Positions 1 through 19,270 of a stretch of DNA of 19,270 bases are shown piece after piece. The position numbers were made by a program, and so were the translations under genes. The DNA is from Methanobacteriota archaeon (lineage in GTDB: Archaea; Altiarchaeota; Altiarchaeia; IMC4; QMZM01), in the NCBI GenBank assembly GCA_021731385.1, contig JAKFXM010000207.1:1-19270 (forward strand). The letters are read 5' to 3'. The notes under the pieces are model-generated. The model saw nothing but the letters and a program-made list of their open reading frames with translations. It did no database searches and was not told where the DNA came from. Position 1 is the stretch's first letter; each line of letters opens with the position of its first letter.

Positions 1-107
1 AATTCGCACCCGGATTGCATTATGTGAATTGGACCCAAAAACTGCCTTGCAGTTTTTCGGGCGGCAAAATCATATATCTCAATAAGAAATGTTGCCATAG
101 TTATTTA

Positions 108-2481: not shown

Positions 2482-2532
2482 TATTAGTAAATTATTAACT
2501 TGTTATAGTATAAAAACCCCTCTCTCAACCTT

Positions 2533-2600
2533 TTTCTTTCAAAAAGAAACCCGAAAAACCCGCTGGGTTTTTGGGCCCAAAAATTTGCTTTGCAAATTTT
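2533..2600. repeat. chain of overlapping perfect palindromes/hairpins in a divergent intergenic region
   Basis: Four elements were read directly from the sequence. These are tttcttt..aaagaaa (2533-2549), aaaaaccc-gct-gggttttt (2554-2572), the 16-nt perfect palindrome tttttgggcccaaaaa (2568-2583) and aaaatttgc-ttt-gcaaatttt (2580-2600). Confidence 0.6.
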
Positions 2601-2606
2601 TCGGGA

Positions 2607-2791
2607 AGGTTGATCAAAAAGAAAGGAATTTGCTCACTTCGTTCGCAGCGACAGGCTATGCCTGTCGCGTCTCAACAGCCTTCGGCTGTTGATCGCAAAT
2701 TCTGATTGAATAAAATTTAATGATTGAAATTACTATTATGTGGGGTGCGAAGCACCCCACCTATTTTGATCAACCTTTTGTTAAAAGGTTG
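2607..2791. repeat. inverted-repeat-bounded structured element of about 172 bp (MITE-like or regulatory) ending at the rfcL start
   Basis: An inverted repeat of AAGGTTGATCAAAA (2607-2620) and TTTTGATCAACCTT (2765-2778) bounds the element. Internal hairpins are gcgacaggc-tat-gcctgtcgc (2648-2668), aacagcc-ttcg-gctgtt (2674-2690) and gtggggtgc-gaa-gcaccccac (2739-2759, followed by ctatttt). A terminal hairpin caacctttt-gtt-aaaaggttg (2771-2791) is also present. The motif GTTGATC recurs at 2609, 2688, 2766 and 2788. Confidence 0.5.
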
Positions 2792-2796
2792 ATTTA

Positions 2797-4080
2797 ATGA
2801 TGGAATTCAATATGCAATATGACCCATCTTTAGATGGGTCAGTAAGTGGTGATGATCAACCTCCCGAATCAGAGTCAATGGCTCTGATTGGGCCCAATGA
2901 GCCTAAAGGCTCATTAGGGTTCAGAAGGTTGATGTGGATCAGGAAATATAAGCCGGGGCACCTTGATGAGATTGCAGGCAATGCAAAATTGGTTGAGGAG
3001 TTAAGGAAATACAACTGGAAAAAACCATTGCTTGTCTATGGTCCTCCCGGTACTGGAAAGACCGTCATCGTTGAGGCGCTTGCTGTTGATTTGGGATTTG
3101 AATTAACCGAGATAAACGACAGGAATATTGAAAATGCAAAAACAATTATGCAGACTTCAAGTATCTTTGGAGACAGAAAATTAATTCTAATTGACAATGT
3201 TGATCAGATTGGTAATATTGCGTTATTAACGGATGCAATAAAAGAGACAAGAAACCCGACAATTCTGATAACCTCCGAATTTCAGTCCAAAAGATTGAAG
3301 ACAATAAAACTGCTTTGTGAGAAGATTCAGATGAGGAGGCTCCTTTCCACAACAATTGCAAACCTCCTTCAAAAAATATGCAAAAGTGAGGGGATCGAGG
3401 CTGATAAGAGCATACTTGCAAAAATTGCAGAAAATGCCAATGGTGATGCAAGGTCTGCAATAAATGACCTCGAGATGATTGGAAAGGGAAAGAAAAAACT
3501 AACTGCTGAAGATACTGAACTCCTTGGATCAAGGAACAGGTTAATTGATGTTTATAGTGCCCTTAGTTCGATATTGGCAAAAAGGGATTTTAAAGAGGCT
3601 TTAAATTCTACAATGAATCTTGACTTGGAGCCAAGGGATACCCTTTTGTGGATCGATGAGAATCTCCCAAGGGTTTTTAAGGGTAAAAAAGAAATAAGCA
3701 GCGGATATAACTATATCTCAAGGGCCGATATATTTATCGGCAGGATCCAAAGCAGGCAATACTGGGGCTTTTTAAGATATGCAGTTCCATTGATGACCGG
3801 CGGTGTTAATGTTTCAAAAGGTACGTCACCTGTTAATTACGCAAGATACCAGTTTCCAATGTATATTGCAAAATTGGGACAGACAAAAAAGGAAAGATCA
3901 CTTAAAAAATCAATATCCGGGAAATTATCTCCAAAACTTCATGTCTCCTCTAAAATTGTGGTGCGGGATTATATCCCATTATTCAGAATATTGCTTAAGA
4001 ATAAAAAGATAGCCGAGAGGGAACTTGCCGAAAGATTTAAATTTGAGGATGAGGAGTTGGAGTACATCAAGGGCGATTAG
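2797..4080 (+). CDS. rfcL: replication factor C large subunit (clamp loader, AAA+)
   Basis: 427 aa. WIRKYKP is followed by the Walker A motif LLVYGPPGTGKT, then DNVD (the Walker B-like box) and a sensor region, ending in a long C-terminal helical domain. ATG ATG at 2797-2802 sits directly after a hairpin. An alternative in-frame ATG at 2932 (MWIRKYKP) would give the canonical N-terminus. TAG at 4078-4080. Confidence 0.75.
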   Translation: MMEFNMQYDPSLDGSVSGDDQPPESESMALIGPNEPKGSLGFRRLMWIRKYKPGHLDEIAGNAKLVEELRKYNWKKPLLVYGPPGTGKTVIVEALAVDLGFELTEINDRNIENAKTIMQTSSIFGDRKLILIDNVDQIGNIALLTDAIKETRNPTILITSEFQSKRLKTIKLLCEKIQMRRLLSTTIANLLQKICKSEGIEADKSILAKIAENANGDARSAINDLEMIGKGKKKLTAEDTELLGSRNRLIDVYSALSSILAKRDFKEALNSTMNLDLEPRDTLLWIDENLPRVFKGKKEISSGYNYISRADIFIGRIQSRQYWGFLRYAVPLMTGGVNVSKGTSPVNYARYQFPMYIAKLGQTKKERSLKKSISGKLSPKLHVSSKIVVRDYIPLFRILLKNKKIAERELAERFKFEDEELEYIKGD

Positions 4081-5000
4081 CCGGAATTCCCGGCATTCTC
4101 CTCAAATTTTATCTCATTTCTCTCAAGTAATATCCTGAAATCTTCCATGCTGAGCCTTTTCTTGCTCTGCAATTTCTCCTTTGCCTCAATTACGCTTTCC
4201 TCCTTCTTCCTTTCTTCCCTATCAGATCTTATCTTTTCAAGTTCTGTTATAAACGGTGCAACCTTTTCCTGGATCTCCTTGATTTCCTTCTTAATTGAGG
4301 TTACATTGTCCCTGAGAGGATTCATATAATCATACTTTTCAAGAAGCCCCTTATGACATTCATCAGAATGCTTCCGCAATTCGTCAATCTCCTTATATCT
4401 CTTCATTGCATTCTCATGATTATTTTGCGATTCTTGCGCAAGATTCTGTATCTTGTCATGAATGTCATCAAGTTCTTTATTTACATCCTTTATCCCCCCA
4501 TAAGTCTCCGAAACATCTTTGTGCATCGTATTTGCCTTTTTGGCTGCAATGAATCTGTCCTTTATTTCAAATAAATTCTCAAAAATCCTGATTTCGTCCT
4601 GCAGGGGTATGTCTTTATTCAGCAGGGTATCCAGACCGTTTTCATAGGAAATCTGAAGCCTTTCGCTTGTACCCCCCGCGATTCTGTTTAATTCATCCCT
4701 TTGAACCTTTGTATCCCTCATATTGCTTCTGAGGCTCTTTATCTCGGTTAGAAGTATTGTGCGCCTTTTCTTAAATTCGGATATTTCGTTATTAACAGAA
4801 TCCCTTTTCTTTATAAACTCCTTTGCCTCTGTGTTAAGTTTCTTGATTTTGTCAGTTGATTCGTCCCTCTCTACTCTCAACCTGTCGGCTTCTGCCTTGT
4901 GAAAATTTATCTCCTTGTATAACCTCTTTATCTCCTTATCCTTTCTGTCTATCTCGTGCCTTAGGGCGTTTATTTTTTCCTTCAGTTCCTTTTCGTTCAT
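4077..5000 (-). CDS. coiled-coil protein of unknown function
   Basis: 307 aa, K/E/R-rich heptad-like sequence throughout. Strong SD AAGGAGGAAACCTG immediately precedes ATG at 4998-5000. The stop TAA (revcomp of 4077-4079) overlaps the rfcL TAG, so the two genes converge. Confidence 0.55.
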   Translation of the reverse strand: MNEKELKEKINALRHEIDRKDKEIKRLYKEINFHKAEADRLRVERDESTDKIKKLNTEAKEFIKKRDSVNNEISEFKKRRTILLTEIKSLRSNMRDTKVQRDELNRIAGGTSERLQISYENGLDTLLNKDIPLQDEIRIFENLFEIKDRFIAAKKANTMHKDVSETYGGIKDVNKELDDIHDKIQNLAQESQNNHENAMKRYKEIDELRKHSDECHKGLLEKYDYMNPLRDNVTSIKKEIKEIQEKVAPFITELEKIRSDREERKKEESVIEAKEKLQSKKRLSMEDFRILLERNEIKFEENAGNSG

Positions 5001-5391
5001 CAGGTTTCCTCCTTACTACTGAAAAATCCTTATATTTGTTGTTCCAATACTCTATTGCATCTTTGTGCATACTAATATGTTGTTCAAGCCAGGGTGATCT
5101 GCTATTCTTATTTACAATTCCGTCGGGCTGAAATTCCTTCAGTTCGTTCTTCAAATTTATTATCTCCGTATCCGTAATTTTCTTTTCATTCAGATATTTT
5201 TTATAATTCGGATTTTCTTCATCATTGCTGGCTGAATCCATCCAGTACTTCAACTGCTCCTGCTTTTCATTCAGTACATTAAGTTTACTAATTACATCAA
5301 ATTCCCTTTTATAACCCCCAAGAAATTTTCTGTGCTTTTCAATGAGGATGTTCGATAATTGCTTTGGGGTTACTTTTTCAGGCGGAGTCAT
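4936..5391 (-). CDS. hypothetical hydrophilic protein
   Basis: 151 aa. ATG at 5389-5391 lies 27 nt downstream of the CDP-alcohol phosphatidyltransferase stop. The 3' end overlaps the next gene by 65 nt in a different frame. No recognisable motif. Confidence 0.35.
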   Translation of the reverse strand: MTPPEKVTPKQLSNILIEKHRKFLGGYKREFDVISKLNVLNEKQEQLKYWMDSASNDEENPNYKKYLNEKKITDTEIINLKNELKEFQPDGIVNKNSRSPWLEQHISMHKDAIEYWNNKYKDFSVVRRKPDERKGTEGKNKRPKARDRQKG

Positions 5392-13587: not shown

Positions 13588-16500
13588 ATGGCACAAAGCA
13601 AACCCCAAATTAGTTCTAAAGACAAGAAAAATTTTGCCAACCCGAAAAATTCCAAAGGAATTTTTGGGCCCATTGAGCCAGAGGCTCAATCGGGTGGCAA
13701 AATTTTTGTGCCCAATCAGAAACTTATAGTTTCTGATTCGGGCAAGAAGGAAAAATTTATTCTCTGGTTTGATGAAATCGGCATTGAGGATGTCCCTCTT
13801 GTAGGCGGAAAAAATGCATCCTTGGGGGAGATGATAAGAGAGTTAAGCAGCGAGGGGATAAATGTTCCAAACGGTTTTGCAATAACTGCCTATGCATATA
13901 ACTATCTGCTGAAAAATGCCAAGATTGAGGAGAAGATTAAATCCGCTCTCGCAGACCTTGACACACATAACATTAACAACTTAATGGAAAGGGGCAAAAA
14001 GGTCAGGGATATAATTCTCAAAGCTGAATTTCCGGAAGAACTAAAATCTGAAATAATAGATGCATATTCCCAGATGCACAAGAAATTTGGCTATGAAGGA
14101 AATCCGGATGTCGCTATTCGCTCAAGCGCAACTGCAGAGGATTTGCCAGATGCTTCTTTTGCAGGGCAGCAGGACACCTACCTCAACATCAGGGGTCCTG
14201 ATGCTGTGATTGATGCGTGTAAAAAATGTTTTGCAAGCCTCTTTACCGACCGGGCAATCTCGTACCGGACGGATAAGGGCTTCAACCATTTTGATGTCTA
14301 CCTTTCAATTGCCGTCCAAAAGATGGTCCGGAGCGATTCTGCGAGTTCCGGTGTCGTTTTCTCGATAGATACTGAGTCTGGTTTTAAGGATGTTGTTTTT
14401 ATAACGGGTTCTTACGGTCTTGGTGAAAACATTGTCAAGGGTGCAGTAAATCCAGATGAAATCTATGTATTCAAGCCAACACTGAAAAAGGGAAAGAAAC
14501 CAATTATTGGAAAGAAATTGGGGACAAAGAAGATAAAGATGGTTTATTCCGATACCGGAACTAAGAATATAGACACACCGGAAGAAGAGAGTAACAGATT
14601 CTGCATGACGGATGATGAGGCATTGAAATTGGCCGAGTGGACATGCATCATTGAGGATCACTACAGTAAAAAGGCAGGTTATTACAAGCCCATGGACATA
14701 GAATGGGCAAAGGATGGTGACGGAATAAAAATTGGATCTGGCAAATTATTCGTTGTCCAGGCAAGACCGGAAACAGTGCATTCTCAGAAAAATTCAAAGA
14801 TAATAAGGACATACATACTGAAGGAAACGGGCACGGTTCTTATTACGGGTCAGGCAGTAGGGGAACTTATTGGAAAGGGCGAAGCGAATAATATTGCAAG
14901 TTCTGAAGAGATAACGAAATTCAAAAAAGGTCAGGTTCTTGTAACAGACATGACTGATCCGGATTGGGAGCCGATAATGAAGATAGCATCTGCGATTGTT
15001 ACGAATAGGGGGGGCAGGACATGTTTCTCTGGAGATACTAAAATTTTAACTAACAATGGATTTATGACTATGAGTGAAATTTTTGAAAATCATGAAGGGC
15101 TGTTTGTTCCTTCTCTGAACAGAAATACCCTAAAAATAGAATGGAAGTCTATTCTAGCTGTAATGAAAAGACAAAGCGAGGTTATTGAAATTGAAACATC
15201 ATTAACAGGAAGGATGAAAGGCAACAGACTTAAACTTACACCAGACCATAAGATGCTCACATTTGAGAATAGGCAACTTGTTACAAAGGAAATAGATAAA
15301 ATCGTAGAAGAGAAAGAATACCTAACAATAATGGACGCCCTTCCAGCATTATCAAGCAGTTCTGAAAGAGAAAATGATCTTGCATATCTGCTGGGTGCAA
15401 TATCAACTGATGGCCATATATATCTAACAAAAACTCATGGAGAAGTTCAATTAATCCAAAAACCAACAAAGGAAAAAGAGGCTTTTATTAAAGAGGTTGA
15501 TGGTTGCTTAAACAAGGTTTACGGCAAAAGATTTAATCCGAAATTCAGAGAATTTCGGAGCTTCGATTTTCCTCTGGAAAATCGAATTAAGGTCAGCAAA
15601 AAGCAAGAGAGTGAAGGGAGTATTAGAGGAAAACCTTGTATAGGCTCTGCAAATGCTTACAGATGTTACGGTAAACAAATAGCTATAAGTTTATTAGAAG
15701 AACAACAAAATTTCATTCAGACACTCTTATATGCTGATGAGAGCCTAATTCTTAATTTCCTGGCAGGGGTTATTGATGGCGATGGTTCAATTAACGGGGA
15801 AGGAACAAGAATCAATATATATTGTTCAAAAGAAGGTCTTTTACAGCAAATAGTTGTTGGATGTCTTAGATTAGGCATACTCCTGCAGGTTACAAGAAAC
15901 AGGAATATTTACAATGTGCAAATCGTTGAGAAGTTAGATAGAATATTAGAATTTACGAAACGGGTTAAATGTCATAACAAGAAAAATTTCCTTTCAGGAA
16001 ATTTTTGTGTGGCTGAGCCCAAAGGGCTCAGACACGTGTCTGAGGCGAAGCCTCAGCCACATGCCCAATCAGCCTTAAAGGCTGATTCGGGTAAAAATGA
16101 TAGAAAGCGTATTGGGACAAGATTCTTTTCTGCAAGACAACTCCTTGATGATGTTAAACACAAGGTGAATTATAAGGGCAGAACTTTGCCGTGCATAGAC
16201 AAAAACCTGTTAATTGACTCTGAAAAAATTAAGAGGGATCTACTTGGATTGTGTCCTGAAAAAATTAAAAACGAAATTATGAAGATACTATCCTCAGATA
16301 CAAGAATGCAAAGAGTTAGGAAAACTGCCAATTTAGGGGTTCAGGATGTTTATAATATAACAATTGCAGATAATCACAATTATGTTGTTTTCACTGATAG
16401 ATACACACCAATAATTGTCAATAACTGTCACGCAGCAATAGTGTCAAGGGAACTCGGAATTCCATGCATTATCGGAACAGGTAATGGAACGGAAATTCTT

Positions 16501-17716: not shown

Positions 17717-18553
17717 GTGGATATTATCTTCCTTTCCGTAAATGATGTCCAGAGTTCAGAATACATAAGAGAGGGCAGCAAAAACCTGCTGAAGACAAGA
17801 TTCTGTACAGCAGATACAATTGCACTCTGCGGGAGGCTTGAGGACGCTGAGAGAACAAAATACGGTCCCAGGTTATGGATAAACGACGGGGAGAGATTCC
17901 CTGTCGTTATAGGAACCTTCAACAAGAATGTTCGGAGGGATGCGGAACAGATTGTTGACGAATTCAAAAAAAATAGCAAAAAAGAGACCTATGTCCTGAT
18001 CTATGGGAATCCCTATGAAACAGATAAGATCTACATAAATGTCAATCATGAGAATTGTGTCATTGTTGTGGATAAAGCAGTATATGAAAAATTCCACGAG
18101 ATGCGGAAACTTGCGGAGCAGCATGTGACAGAGCGACTTCGTCGCCCGAAAAATCGCAAGGCGATTTTTGGGTGTGGCGGAGAACCTTTGGTTCTCCGAC
18201 ATATATCTGAGCGATTTCATCGCTCAGCTATACCCAATTTGCCTCCGGCAAATTCGGGCTCTGACATATGTCCGAGAGGTTTTACCTCTCGGCCACATCT
18301 TACAAAGAAATCCGACACAAGTGAGAAAAAGATTGAGATAGTCAGGGAAAAAGGAATTTCCGGGGAAATTTCTGATTCTGATATAATAAATCTTATAAAG
18401 AAGGGGGATAAGAGTAGTGGGGTAAGGATTGATGAATTTCTAAAACTATTTGAAATTGAATCAAGGGCTAATATTGAAGAAAAAATCTATCAGATGGTTG
18501 AATCAGGCGAACTCTATGAGCCGAGGGCGGGATTTGTGAAGGTTGTTGAATAA
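17717..18553 (+). CDS. hypothetical protein with C-terminal winged-helix-like domain, carrying an in-frame hairpin-repeat insertion
   Basis: Start chosen at GTG 17717, which has the perfect SD GGAGGT at 17705-17710 and a 6-nt spacer. The six-frame ORF begins at an upstream TTG (17633) inside the hairpin region and is rejected. The K/E/I/N-rich N-domain and C-terminal helix-turn-helix-like segment (IINLIKKGDKSSGVRIDEFLKLF...) flank an R/P/G/S/C-rich insert of about 60 aa. Confidence 0.5.
   Translation: MDIIFLSVNDVQSSEYIREGSKNLLKTRFCTADTIALCGRLEDAERTKYGPRLWINDGERFPVVIGTFNKNVRRDAEQIVDEFKKNSKKETYVLIYGNPYETDKIYINVNHENCVIVVDKAVYEKFHEMRKLAEQHVTERLRRPKNRKAIFGCGGEPLVLRHISERFHRSAIPNLPPANSGSDICPRGFTSRPHLTKKSDTSEKKIEIVREKGISGEISDSDIINLIKKGDKSSGVRIDEFLKLFEIESRANIEEKIYQMVESGELYEPRAGFVKVVE
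18133..18299. repeat. hairpin-chain repeat element (copy B of conserved core) lying in frame inside the 17717-18553 CDS
   Basis: Six consecutive hairpins run in order: gcgac-ttc-gtcgc, aaaatcgc-aag-gcgatttt (18150-18168), ggagaacc-ttt-ggttctcc (18179-18197), tgagcgat-ttc-atcgctca (18208-18226), aatttgcc-tcc-ggcaaatt (18237-18255) and ccgagaggt-ttt-acctctcgg (18272-18292). The core gggctctgacatatgtc (18256-18272) and ccacatc are present. The frame has no stop codon and the segment is GC-rich relative to the surrounding gene. Confidence 0.6.
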
Positions 18554-18942: not shown

Positions 18943-19035
18943 ATCTTATATTATCTCATCATGATATAAATATAAAAATAATTCAATATTTCATATAATT
19001 TGAAATAACATACAAAAAAATAAGAATATAAACAA

Positions 19036-19060
19036 CTGTCGGCTAAAGCCGACAGTTTTT
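19036..19060 (+). terminator. stem-loop followed by T5 (intrinsic-terminator-like)
   Basis: ctgtcggc-taaa-gccgacag (19036-19055) is followed by ttttt (19056-19060). It sits in the AT-rich spacer upstream of the minus-strand 18559-18942 gene, so orientation and function are uncertain. It could also be the first hairpin of the adjacent repeat element. Confidence 0.3.
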
Positions 19061-19068
19061 ATGCGCCT

Positions 19069-19270
19069 GAATCTGCCCCATATATTGAACTGCCCATTAA
19101 TCCGAGACCAGAGGTCTCGGAGCTTCGATGTGGCAGAGCCCTATGGGCTCTGACATATGTCGGAGGCATAGCCTCCGCCACACACCAAATGTGTCGAATT
19201 ATATGAAACTCCTAAAGGAGTTTCATAGATATGAATCTGCTTTGCAGATTCATATTAAAAGGGGCAGATT
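19069..19270. repeat. TIR-bounded hairpin-chain element (copy C of conserved core), MITE-like, truncated by window end
   Basis: The terminal inverted repeat is gaatctgcccc (19069-19079) pairing with ggggcagatt (19261-19270, running to the window end). Internal hairpins are ccgagacc-aga-ggtctcgg (19102-19120), cagagccc-tat-gggctctg (19134-19152), ggaggc-ata-gcctcc (19162-19176), gaaactcc-taaa-ggagtttc (19205-19224) and tgaatctgc-ttt-gcagattca (19232-19252). The palindrome gacatatgtc sits at 19152-19161, followed by ccacacacc. The core matches copies A and B. Confidence 0.6.

What the first reader, a model, noticed from the sequence alone, without database searches (positions are those of the whole stretch)
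19036..19270. TIR-bounded palindromic element running off the window end
The sequence gaatctgcccc at 19069-19079 is the exact reverse complement of the last 10 nt of the window (ggggcagatt). Between them lie six perfect hairpins plus the shared core. The arm tgaatctgc appears both as the left terminus and again inside the final hairpin (tgaatctgc-ttt-gcagattca). That pattern could reflect a duplicated terminus or a target-site duplication. The element is non-coding, about 200 bp, and lies upstream of a small wHTH gene, all of which fits a non-autonomous transposable element. The right end may extend beyond the window.
Basis: seen in the sequence. Interest (0 to 1): 0.6.

Follow-up and report, generated by a model that had tools for sequence, protein, structure and literature searches.

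The report
Nested hairpin insertion elements in Altiarchaeota
The hairpin-rich stretch at the end of this archaeal (Altiarchaeota) contig is a roughly 250-base pile-up of tiny palindromic mobile elements inserted one inside another, and the same elements also sit in-frame inside protein-coding genes elsewhere in the window.

Summary
Positions 19028-19270 hold six perfect hairpins (DNA fold z = -12.4). The terminal inverted repeat is genuine: in a near-identical strain (L004) it continues past the contig end to 13 perfect bp, plus a 3-bp foot. Two related genomes lack the whole ~250 nt at the orthologous spacer, so it is an insertion.

It is not one simple TIR-bounded MITE. It is a nest of small modules. 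A 54-nt double-hairpin element "X" (19129-19182) sits inside the stem of another hairpin, and deleting it restores a perfect hairpin.

The same modules recur across the window: 30 perfect hairpins against about 2 expected. Some lie in-frame inside the PEP-synthase intein and a 278-aa ORF. That ORF carries a triple nest of 60+54+60 nt, and the innermost 60 nt is polymorphic between strains with no target duplication.

X occurs in at least 14 other contigs; the named ones are Altiarchaeota. Its stems keep Watson-Crick pairing through compensated changes, with no G-T pairs. The mobilising enzyme is unknown.

Closest analogues are REP/BIME elements, Rickettsia palindromic elements and MITEs. I rate it a new variant of a known kind.

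The parts
19028..19062 (.). H1 unit. A bulged hairpin, ATAAA(C)AACTGTCGGCT-AA-AGCCGACAGTT TTTAT: 5-bp foot, 1 extrahelical C, 11-bp stem. It lies outside the inverted repeat but inside the block that relatives lack.
   Evidence: Sequence; hairpin scans. The left edge of the gap against L005/L006 falls at about 19028. L004 has one uncompensated stem change, C19040T.
19063..19079 (.). Left arm of the outer inverted repeat (H0): foot GCG, extra C, then CTGAATCTGCCCC at 19067-19079.
   Evidence: (I3).
19080..19100 (.). Spacer holding a degenerate direct copy of the left arm (TGAACTGCCC, 19086-19095), followed by TTAA next to the Z doublet.
   Evidence: Sequence. Origin unresolved.
19101..19121 (.). 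Z doublet, first hairpin: TCCGAGACC-AGA-GGTCTCGGA. It has the same skeleton (TCCGA..AGA..TCGGA GC TTCGA) as the Z doublet at 15537-15586.
19124..19198 (.). Z doublet, second hairpin (TTCGACAC-CAAAT-GTGTCGAA). It is split into 19124-19128 and 19183-19198 by the X element.
   Evidence: Deleting 19129-19182 restores a perfect 8-bp hairpin.
19129..19182 (.). X element, 54 nt: TGTGG-CAGAGCCC TAT GGGCTCTG-ACATATGT-CGGAGGC ATA GCCTCCG-CCACA. It is a two-fold symmetric double hairpin, nested in the Z doublet, with no target duplication.
   Evidence: The skeleton pattern hits 3 elements in the window against 0 expected. It also hits 3 genome contigs and 14 metagenome contigs. Covariation; peeling.
19202..19227 (.). 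W doublet, first hairpin: TATGAAACTCCT-AA-AGGAGTTTCATA.
   Evidence: (I10).
19229..19255 (.). W doublet, second hairpin: ATATGAATCTGC-TTT-GCAGATTCATAT. Its arms carry the same TGAATCTGC as the outer repeat.
   Evidence: (I7, D9, I16).
19261..19270 (.). Right arm of the outer inverted repeat, cut by the contig end. In L004 it continues CAG TGC G and then the flank TTTAAATTTT.
18124..18297 (+). Reference case of nesting inside the 278-aa ORF. Outer X is 60 nt. A 54-nt Y doublet (18145-18172 plus 18233-18258) is inserted in the outer X's first hairpin. A 60-nt X-type element (18173-18232) is inserted at the GGG^CCC centre of the Y doublet. Total 174 nt, or 58 codons.
   Evidence: The 60-nt indel against L004 has unambiguous ends and no TSD. 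About 30 homologues lack the 58 aa. Stepwise removal restores perfect structures.
15970..16089 (+). 120-nt in-frame insertion in the PEP-synthase intein. It is a Y-type doublet (15982-16006 and 16064-16091) with X (16008-16061) at its centre.
   Evidence: A 40-aa block is absent from 7 homologous inteins. Hairpins and peeling.
15535..15588 (+). 54-nt in-frame insertion in the same intein. It is a Z doublet (15537-15586) flanked on both sides by TTAA.
   Evidence: An 18-aa block is absent from 7 homologous inteins. Sequence.
13641..13742 (.). A Y doublet (13641-13694, 54 nt) plus a single Y unit (13711-13742), in the 5' leader or annotated N-terminal extension of the PEP synthase ORF.
2526..2915 (.). 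Largest cluster, about 10 hairpins, upstream of and running into the annotated start of the RFC large-subunit ORF. It includes Y doublets at 2550-2605 and 2863-2919. It also includes the hairpin ATCAACCTTTT-GTT-AAAAGGTTGAT (2769-2793) and a split version of it (TCAACCTT at 2525 and AAGGTTGA at 2606).
34..61 (.). A single Y unit, CCC AAAAACTGC-CTT-GCAGTTTTT CGGG, at the other end of the contig.

Best explanation
The region is a composite of very small (about 25-60 nt), non-coding, palindromic insertion elements that landed inside one another in an intergenic spacer of an Altiarchaeota chromosome.

The building block is a bulged hairpin: a short foot, 1-2 extrahelical bases, an 8-13 bp perfect stem and a loop of about 3 nt. 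These blocks are often joined head-to-head as two-fold symmetric double-hairpin elements. I call the families X, Y, Z and W.

Shown:
- The block 19028 to about 19277 is an insertion relative to orthologous spacers.
- X (19129-19182) is inserted precisely, without target duplication, in the stem of a Z hairpin.
- The same families occur elsewhere in the window, nested up to three deep and in-frame in ORFs.
- One 60-nt copy differs in presence between two strains that are about 99% identical.

Inferred:
- The 13-bp 'TIR' is the two halves of a hairpin stem. That hairpin is of the same kind as its neighbour at 19229-19255, and its loop was opened by later insertions.
- The elements are moved in trans by an unidentified structure-recognising DNA enzyme. 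It would read the conserved foot, bulge and lower stem, on either strand or on an extruded cruciform, and would join without staggered cuts.
- Selection then removes copies that break reading frames, leaving in-frame copies that are multiples of 3 in length.

The cluster probably has no host function. It also probably explains why the assembly stops here.
For: 1. Insertion status. L005 and L006 encode a wHTH orthologue 80-83% identical and have the same flanking Trm1 gene. Both lack the whole block, and the flanks align on either side.

2. Independent confirmation and extension in L004.

3. Precise nesting.
- Removing 19129-19182 restores TTCGACAC-CAAAT-GTGTCGAA.
- Removing 18173-18232 restores the GGGCCC centre, exactly as found in L004.
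- Removing the 54-nt Y doublet restores CAGAGCGAC-TTC-GTCGCTCTG.

4. Recent mobility. The 60-nt indel between the window and L004 has unambiguous ends, no repeat at the junctions and no microhomology.

5. Family status.
- The X skeleton occurs at 3 window loci against 0 expected.
- It occurs in 3 GTDB contigs, all Altiarchaeota or 'uncultured archaeon', and in 14 JGI metagenome contigs.
- There are nine Y units and two Z doublets in the window.

6. Structure under constraint at the DNA level. In 16 X copies, both hairpin helices are 100% Watson-Crick, with 3-4 pair types at three positions and no G-T pair. The covariation score is 0.321 against 0.082 +/- 0.017 in shuffles (0 of 500), and it collapses when partners are slid.

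7. ORF tolerance.
- Insertions of 54, 120 and 174 nt sit in the intein and the 278-aa ORF and are absent from homologues.
- X sits in a 1112-codon frame in L001.
- 14 of 16 X copies are 48, 54 or 60 nt long.

8. Lineage-specific burst. Hairpin density is 1.56/kb in the window and 2.78/kb in L004. It is 0.09-0.37/kb in the nearest relatives L021, L005 and L006, and about 0.11/kb in shuffles.

9. Literature. A MITE census found the highest archaeal MITE density in Ca. Altiarchaeum hamiconexum, 146 per Mb (PMC11602168).
Against: - No transposase or other partner was identified. A crude HUH-Y1 motif scan of 318 open frames in the fetched loci found nothing.
- No conserved target motif flanks X (flanks listed).
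- The polarity of the 60-nt polymorphism is unknown: it could be insertion or precise excision.
- The split-hairpin reading of the TIR is an inference from analogy. The spacer 19080-19100, with its extra left-arm-like copy, is not explained by it.
- Not all families behave alike. Z is flanked by TTAA on both sides, a possible TSD. A related composite in L022 is flanked by direct repeats of 19 and 22 nt. More than one mechanism may therefore be at work.
- The X copies used for covariation are not all independent. L009, L016 and L019 look orthologous.
Confidence: 0.72

Rival explanations
1. A single classical MITE. A roughly 211-nt non-autonomous transposon is bounded by 13-bp terminal inverted repeats and moved as a unit by a DDE-type transposase that makes a short TSD.
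For: - The inverted repeat is perfect for 13 bp once extended with L004.
- TGCG lies just outside both arms.
- Altiarchaeum genomes are reported to be MITE-rich.
- The whole block is absent from relatives.
- MITEs can acquire nested insertions after landing.
Against: - No other copy of the termini was found in about 127 kb.
- The missing block begins about 40 nt outside the left arm.
- The putative TSD is offset by 1 nt, is 3 of 4 in L004, and its right copy lies inside the inserted DNA.
- The arms duplicate the stem of the adjacent intact hairpin.
- The well-resolved insertions of this element zoo leave no TSD.
Confidence: 0.15
2. A host cis-regulatory or RNA element. For example, operator palindromes for the adjacent small DNA-binding protein, a structured 5' leader or sRNA, or a termination or processing signal between trm1 and the 127-aa gene.
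For: - It is located between two co-oriented genes and upstream of a putative regulator.
- The predicted structure is very strong.
- Stems are maintained by compensated changes.
Against: - It is absent from the orthologous spacer in relatives that keep both genes and the AT-rich promoter-proximal sequence.
- The same modules sit inside ORFs and an intein.
- There is no Rfam match at gathering score in the whole window, and only sub-threshold chance hits in the region.
- The stems show no G-T pairs and are two-fold symmetric, which is not what an RNA read from one strand looks like.
- The six hairpins all differ in sequence, so they cannot be sites for one regulator.
Confidence: 0.05
3. Locally generated palindromes. 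The hairpins would arise in place by snap-back or template-switch replication errors (quasi-palindrome formation) rather than by insertion of pre-existing elements.
For: - Stems are almost all perfect although the apical 2-5 bp and the loops differ in nearly every copy.
- Quasi-palindrome correction is an established mutational process (background knowledge).
Against: - The skeletons (foot, bulge, lower stem, centre) are conserved between loci and between genomes with 30-50% GC. The copies therefore share ancestry.
- The insertions have sharp ends and restore older structures when removed.
- The two in-situ stem changes seen between close strains are uncompensated: 19040 C/T between the window and L004, and one between L007 and L015.
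- Template switching may still contribute to apex turnover.
Confidence: 0.05
4. An assembly artefact. The contig end would be a chimeric or fold-back sequence produced by the assembler.
For: Palindromes at contig ends are a known artefact class, and both ends of this contig lie in hairpin elements.
Against: An independent assembly from another sample (L004) differs at 15 positions and carries the same cluster. It reads through it into the neighbouring gene.
Confidence: 0.02

Closest known systems
REP / BIME / REPIN elements of bacteria (mobilised by RAYT, a Y1 HUH transposase)
   Same: - Short hairpin-forming palindromes with a conserved base and a mismatch or bulge.
- They occur as inverted doublets and in clusters.
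- They are non-autonomous, with no TSD reported.
- Sequence families show compensated stem variation.
   Different: - No GTAG or CGTC head.
- The two hairpins of a doublet are not complementary to each other, so the doublet does not fold into one long REPIN hairpin.
- Many copies are intragenic and translated in-frame.
- The host is archaeal.
- No RAYT was found, and none could be searched for genome-wide.
Rickettsia palindromic elements (RPEs)
   Same: - Small palindromic repeats.
- They insert in-frame in protein-coding genes, add peptide segments at tolerated sites, and also occupy intergenic DNA.
- The mobilising enzyme is unknown.
   Different: - RPEs are about 100-150 bp and form single families of similar sequence in an alphaproteobacterial lineage (background knowledge).
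- These elements are 25-60 nt, nest within each other, form several skeleton families and occur in an archaeal phylum.
- Sequence similarity to RPEs was not tested.
Prokaryotic MITEs, including the 'cMITEs' counted in Ca. Altiarchaeum hamiconexum (PMC11602168)
   Same: Non-coding, short, repeated and non-autonomous, with inverted termini. A high density in Altiarchaeum has already been noted.
   Different: - The census used MITE-Tracker, which requires a TIR plus a TSD, and gives no anatomy.
- The best-resolved elements here (X, the Y doublet) leave no TSD.
- They are far smaller than typical MITEs.
- No parent IS with matching ends is known.
IS200/IS605-derived palindrome-associated elements (PATEs) and the ssDNA 'peel-and-paste' pathway
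   Same: - Insertion without a TSD, and seamless ends.
- Dependence on hairpin structure rather than stem sequence.
- IS200/IS605 is the most widespread IS family in archaea (PMC13343696).
   Different: - IS200/IS605 ends carry hairpins in the same orientation on one strand, and the element inserts 3' of a fixed tetra- or pentanucleotide (background knowledge).
- X is two-fold symmetric.
- No conserved flanking motif is seen.
Mitochondrial and plastid palindromic selfish elements: Allomyces double-hairpin elements, yeast GC clusters (PMC4478555), Volvox palindromic repeats (PMC2670323)
   Same: Tiny hairpin or double-hairpin elements that spread within one genome, insert into each other and into genes, and have no encoded enzyme.
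   Different: Those are organellar, with different sequences. The comparison rests on titles, abstracts and background knowledge, not on alignment.
Integron attC sites
   Same: Conserved folded shape with extrahelical bases and a variable stem sequence, recognised as folded DNA.
   Different: attC sites flank gene cassettes and are recombined by IntI at attI. Here there are no cassettes, no integrase context in the window and a two-fold symmetric layout. The resemblance is in principle only.

Membership tests
Classical MITE (for the 19067-19273 inverted-repeat-bounded unit) | Terminal inverted repeats of at least 10 bp | tested here: met
   13 perfect bp after extension with L004.
Classical MITE (for the 19067-19273 inverted-repeat-bounded unit) | Target-site duplication directly flanking the TIRs | tested here: inconclusive
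   TGCG lies on both sides. It is offset by 1 nt on the left, is 3 of 4 in L004, and the right copy lies within the DNA that relatives lack.
Classical MITE (for the 19067-19273 inverted-repeat-bounded unit) | Multiple copies with the same termini in the genome | tested here: not met
   No further copy with <=2 mismatches in about 127 kb of window plus L001-L020. Only about 22 kb of that is from this lineage, so the test is weak.
Classical MITE (for the 19067-19273 inverted-repeat-bounded unit) | An autonomous IS with matching ends | not testable with these tools
REP/BIME (RAYT-mobilised) | Conserved GTAG or CGTC tag at one end of the palindrome | tested here: not met
   Unit ends are TGTGG/CCACA, CCCG/CGGG and TCCGA/TCGAA. 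Tag definition from PMC3733652 (abstract).
REP/BIME (RAYT-mobilised) | Extragenic location | tested here: not met
   Copies lie inside the intein, the 278-aa ORF and a 1112-codon frame in L001.
REP/BIME (RAYT-mobilised) | A RAYT gene flanked by the repeats | not testable with these tools
   A crude HUH-Y motif scan of 318 frames found none. This does not amount to a genome search.
IS200/IS605-derived element | No TSD and seamless junctions | tested here: met
   The 60-nt indel, X in Z, the Y doublet in X, and the empty site in L021.
IS200/IS605-derived element | Insertion 3' of a conserved tetra- or pentanucleotide | tested here: not met
   The 5' flanks of about 15 X copies share no motif (AGCA, TCGA, TGGG, ATCA, GCGA, ATAA ...).
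IS200/IS605-derived element | Left- and right-end hairpins in the same orientation on one strand | tested here: not met
   X, Y and Z doublets are two-fold symmetric, with bulges on the outer side of each hairpin.
Rickettsia-type palindromic elements (functional class: in-frame palindromic insertions) | In-frame insertion in ORFs that stay open, absent from orthologues | tested here: met
   Blocks of 54, 120 and 174 nt.
Rickettsia-type palindromic elements (functional class: in-frame palindromic insertions) | Sequence homology to RPE families | not tested
The different domain of life and different size make homology unlikely.
Known RNA family (Rfam) | Match at or above the gathering score | tested here: not met
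   0 matches in the whole window. The best sub-threshold hit in the region has E = 0.023 and lies far below its cut-off.

The most novel reading that the evidence does not exclude
Altiarchaeota may carry a previously undescribed superfamily of ultra-small (about 50-60 nt) double-hairpin elements.
- They are two-fold symmetric.
- They integrate without target duplication.
- They land preferentially in the stems, loops or centres of other such elements, and in-frame in genes.
- Their conserved foot and bulge with a hypervariable but always Watson-Crick apex points to recognition of folded or cruciform DNA by a so far unknown archaeal enzyme. That enzyme would not fit the DDE, RAYT or IS200/IS605 patterns.
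Probability: 0.35. Interest if true: 0.7.

Novelty: new variant of a known kind. Interest (0 to 1): 0.55.

Why it matters
If the reading holds, this is a compact natural system for studying how hairpin DNA is recognised and moved in archaea. REP-like and RPE-like elements have hardly been described there.

It has four concrete consequences:
- It shows that 18-20-residue peptides are being added to archaeal proteins by selfish DNA. Here that includes an intein and a conserved 220-aa protein, with up to 58 extra residues from three nested hits.
- It gives presence/absence markers that separate near-identical Altiarchaeota strains.
- It explains why these MAGs fragment at such sites.
- For annotation, it warns that N-terminal 'extensions' and odd linkers in these genomes may be element-encoded.

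Tried and rejected
- Exact-protein look-ups of window genes failed, so the contig's own record and accession could not be recovered.
- A scan of viral contigs with the X skeleton found nothing.
- Rfam gave only chance-level hits.
- tRNA and tmRNA scan of the window: none.
- CRISPR array was rejected because the hairpins all differ in sequence.
- A replication origin (ORB boxes) was rejected because the modules are dispersed and intragenic.
- BHB-type archaeal introns were considered for the intragenic copies and rejected. X does not form a bulge-helix-bulge, and every intragenic copy keeps the frame open and is a multiple of 3. That would be unnecessary if the copies were spliced out.
- C/D-box sRNA was rejected. 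There is no C box, and the only hint is sR41 at E = 0.19.
- The MAFFT alignment of X copies is not in structural register for the variable upper stems, so covariation was counted only on the foot and lower-stem pairs.
- A long TSD was looked for at the finding's site, after 19- and 22-nt direct repeats were seen in L022. None is present.
- A crude HUH-Y1 motif search for a transposase in all fetched loci found none.
- A literature search for Altiarchaeota with hairpin, palindrome or MITE terms found only the density figure in PMC11602168 and IS statistics in PMC13343696.
Full report
**1. Context**

The window is an archaeal chromosome fragment of about 40% GC. Its genes include:
- the RFC large subunit
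- a radical-SAM protein
- a MacB-type ABC transporter
- NurA
- PEP synthase carrying a roughly 468-aa intein
- a conserved ORF of about 220 aa, which is 278 aa here
- a 127-aa protein of the AF_0843 family

No tRNA or Rfam family is present. A protein 100% identical to the 278-aa ORF is recorded on an NCBI contig of exactly 19270 nt. The window is therefore a whole contig, and the finding sits at a true contig end. Named relatives of its proteins and of its repeat elements are Altiarchaeota MAGs.

**2. The observation**

- AATCTGCCCC (19070-19079) is the reverse complement of the last 10 nt (19261-19270).
- TGAATCTGC recurs in the last hairpin.
- There are six perfect hairpins between 19034 and 19255. 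One of them, 19034-19057, lies outside the left repeat arm.

The DNA fold has z = -12.4. Shuffles give 0.07 hairpins where six are seen, and a terminal 10-mer inverted repeat appeared in 2 of 5000 shuffles.

**3. What lies beyond the end**

The 127-aa protein has a 98%-identical homologue on a 2.5-kb contig from GCA_017973895.1 (L004). Over 1646 aligned nt, L004 differs from the window by 15 substitutions and one indel. It is therefore an independent sequence from a near-identical strain.

L004 carries the same hairpin cluster and reads on as ...GGGGCAGATT|CAGTGCG TTTAAATTTT..., into the 3' end of a Trm1-type gene. The inverted repeat is thus CTGAATCTGCCCC / GGGGCAGATTCAG, 13 of 13. In L004 it is extended by GCA(C)/TGC.

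**4. It is an insertion**

Two more distant relatives (L005 and L006, protein 80-83% identical) have the same gene order. Their spacers align on both sides but lack the entire block from about 19028 to about 19277. The missing block equals two units:
- H1 (19028-19062), a bulged hairpin
- the repeat-bounded block, including its foot

No long direct repeat flanks the block.

**5. The wider pattern**

A scan of the whole window found 30 perfect hairpins (stem >=8, loop 1-5; 23 have 3-nt loops). Dinucleotide shuffles give 2.15 +/- 1.46. The hairpins are clustered at:
- 34-61
- 2526-2915
- 13641-13742
- 15537-15586
- 15982-16091
- 18124-18297
- 19028-19270

They are not random palindromes. They share skeletons while differing in the upper stem and loop:
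- X = TGTGG-CNGAG..CTCNG-ACAYRTGT-CNGAG..CTCNG-CCACA
- Y = CCC(G)AA..TT GGG, usually paired as CCCG..GGG|CCC..CGGG
- Z = TCCGA..AGA..TCGGA GC TTCGA..TCGAA
- W = TATGAA.CT..AG.TTCATA pairs

**6. Nesting and precise ends**

Removing X (19129-19182, 54 nt) from the finding region restores a perfect hairpin, TTCGACAC-CAAAT-GTGTCGAA. This completes a Z doublet like the one at 15537-15586.

In the 278-aa ORF the single indel against L004 is a 60-nt X-type element at 18173-18232. It sits exactly at the GGG^CCC centre of a Y doublet, its ends cannot be shifted, and it has no duplicated bases. Removing the 54-nt Y doublet in turn restores the perfect first hairpin of an outer 60-nt X.

The orthologue in L021 shows the empty site, GAGCAG^TATCTTAC. 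The gap is 174 nt, which is 60+54+60. About 30 homologous proteins lack the corresponding 58 residues.

In the intein, 18-aa and 40-aa blocks coincide with a Z doublet and with a Y doublet plus X. Both blocks are absent from seven homologous inteins. X also lies in a 1112-codon frame in L001. Of 16 X copies, 14 are 48, 54 or 60 nt long.

**7. Distribution**

The X skeleton pattern found:
- three GTDB contigs, two labelled Altiarchaeota and one 'uncultured archaeon'
- 14 JGI metagenome contigs with 30-48% GC
- nothing in viral contigs

Hairpin density is 1.56/kb in the window and 2.78/kb in L004. It is 0.09-0.37/kb in the closest other relatives, so this lineage has undergone a burst. A published MITE census reports the highest archaeal MITE density in Ca. 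Altiarchaeum hamiconexum. That census describes no anatomy and relies on a TIR+TSD detector.

**8. Structure constraint**

Across the 16 X copies, the lower-stem pairs of both hairpins are 100% Watson-Crick. Three positions carry 3-4 different pair types, and there is not a single G-T pair. The covariation score is 0.321 against 0.082 in shuffles (0 of 500), and the signal disappears when partners are slid.

Two-fold symmetry together with the absence of wobble pairs argues for a constraint on DNA read from both strands, or as a cruciform, rather than on an RNA. Some copies are probably orthologous, so the counts overstate the number of independent events.

Two substitutions seen in stems between close strains are uncompensated. 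There is therefore no sign of rapid in-place correction. Perfect stems more likely reflect young copies and turnover.

**9. Interpretation of the finding**

The region is best described as:
- H1 (19028-19062), followed by
- a hairpin H0 whose 13-bp stem is now the 'TIR' and whose loop holds:
  - a 21-nt spacer with a degenerate extra left arm
  - a Z doublet interrupted by X
  - a W doublet

H0 shares TGAATCTGC with the intact W hairpin beside it. Elsewhere the same situation is visible: an intact hairpin next to a split version of the same hairpin. One example is ATCAACCTTTT-GTT-AAAAGGTTGAT at 2769-2793 against TCAACCTT...AAGGTTGA around 2525-2613. Similar split arms appear in L009 and L016-L019.

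This reading is inferred, not proven. A unit MITE that later collected insertions remains possible, and I give it about 15%.

**10. Mechanism**

Shown: precise integration or excision without a TSD for X and for the Y doublet, nesting, and in-frame survival in ORFs.

Inferred: mobilisation in trans by an enzyme that recognises the foot, bulge and lower stem of folded DNA.

None of the known patterns fits fully:
- The RAYT/REP tags are absent, and the elements are not extragenic.
- The IS200/IS605 target motif and same-strand hairpin layout are absent.
- DDE-type TSDs are absent for X and Y.

Other families may differ. Z is flanked by TTAA on both sides. A three-hairpin composite in L022 is flanked by direct repeats of 19 and 22 nt, one of them the 5' end of a tRNA-Ser gene beside an integrase gene. 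No candidate enzyme was found in the limited sequence available.

**11. Verdict**

The phenomenon is a new archaeal variant of the REP / RPE / MITE class of small palindromic mobile DNA. Its features are unusually clean: triple nesting, a strain polymorphism, and in-frame hits in an intein. The mobilising mechanism remains open.

Noticed in passing
window 1-61 and 19028-19270: Both ends of the contig lie in hairpin elements: a Y unit at 34-61 and the finding at the other end. The elements probably break the assembly of these MAGs.
   Followed up: partly
window 13588-13752 and 2797-2932: The annotated N-terminal extensions of PEP synthase (about 55 aa before the conserved ILWFDEIG) and of the RFC large subunit (about 45 aa before LMWIRKYKP) are encoded by hairpin clusters. 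The true starts may lie downstream, or the proteins may carry element-encoded leaders.
   Followed up: no
L022 511-679 and 3394-3639 (Ga0209636_10004021): In another Altiarchaeota-like contig, the orthologue of the 278-aa ORF has an independent 150-nt in-frame hairpin composite at the same linker, flanked by a 19-nt direct repeat. A second copy of the composite has the same skeleton but different stem cores. It is flanked by a 22-nt repeat of the 5' end of a tRNA-Ser gene, next to a tyrosine-integrase gene (3814-5019). Duplications this long are unusual for transposons.
   Followed up: partly
L002 5760-5925; L003 836-1000; L022 1780-1900: Several hairpin elements, including X, lie directly next to tRNA genes.
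   Followed up: no
window 15022-16425: PEP synthase carries a large LAGLIDADG-type intein. Its closest homologues (up to 55% identity) are annotated from very different taxa, including Nanoarchaeota, Binatia, Methylococcaceae and Rokubacteria MAGs. That is consistent with horizontal spread of the intein.
   Followed up: no
window 2603-2616, 2769-2793, 2924-2933; L009, L016-L019: The motif AAGGTTGATCA and its complement ATCAACCTT recur close to gene starts in the window and in several metagenome contigs. They appear both as an intact hairpin and as arms bracketing hairpin clusters.
   Followed up: partly
X copies in all loci (alignment A2): The centre of X is either ACATATGT or ACACGTGT. It changes symmetrically on both halves and so stays a perfect palindrome, without matching changes in the outer flanks. 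This would fit recognition of the duplex centre by a dimer. Exceptions are L012 and the 60-nt window copy.
   Followed up: partly
L005 6413-6817: A Vsr-type very-short-patch repair endonuclease gene lies near the orthologous locus in the relative that lacks the elements. No link to the elements was examined.
   Followed up: no
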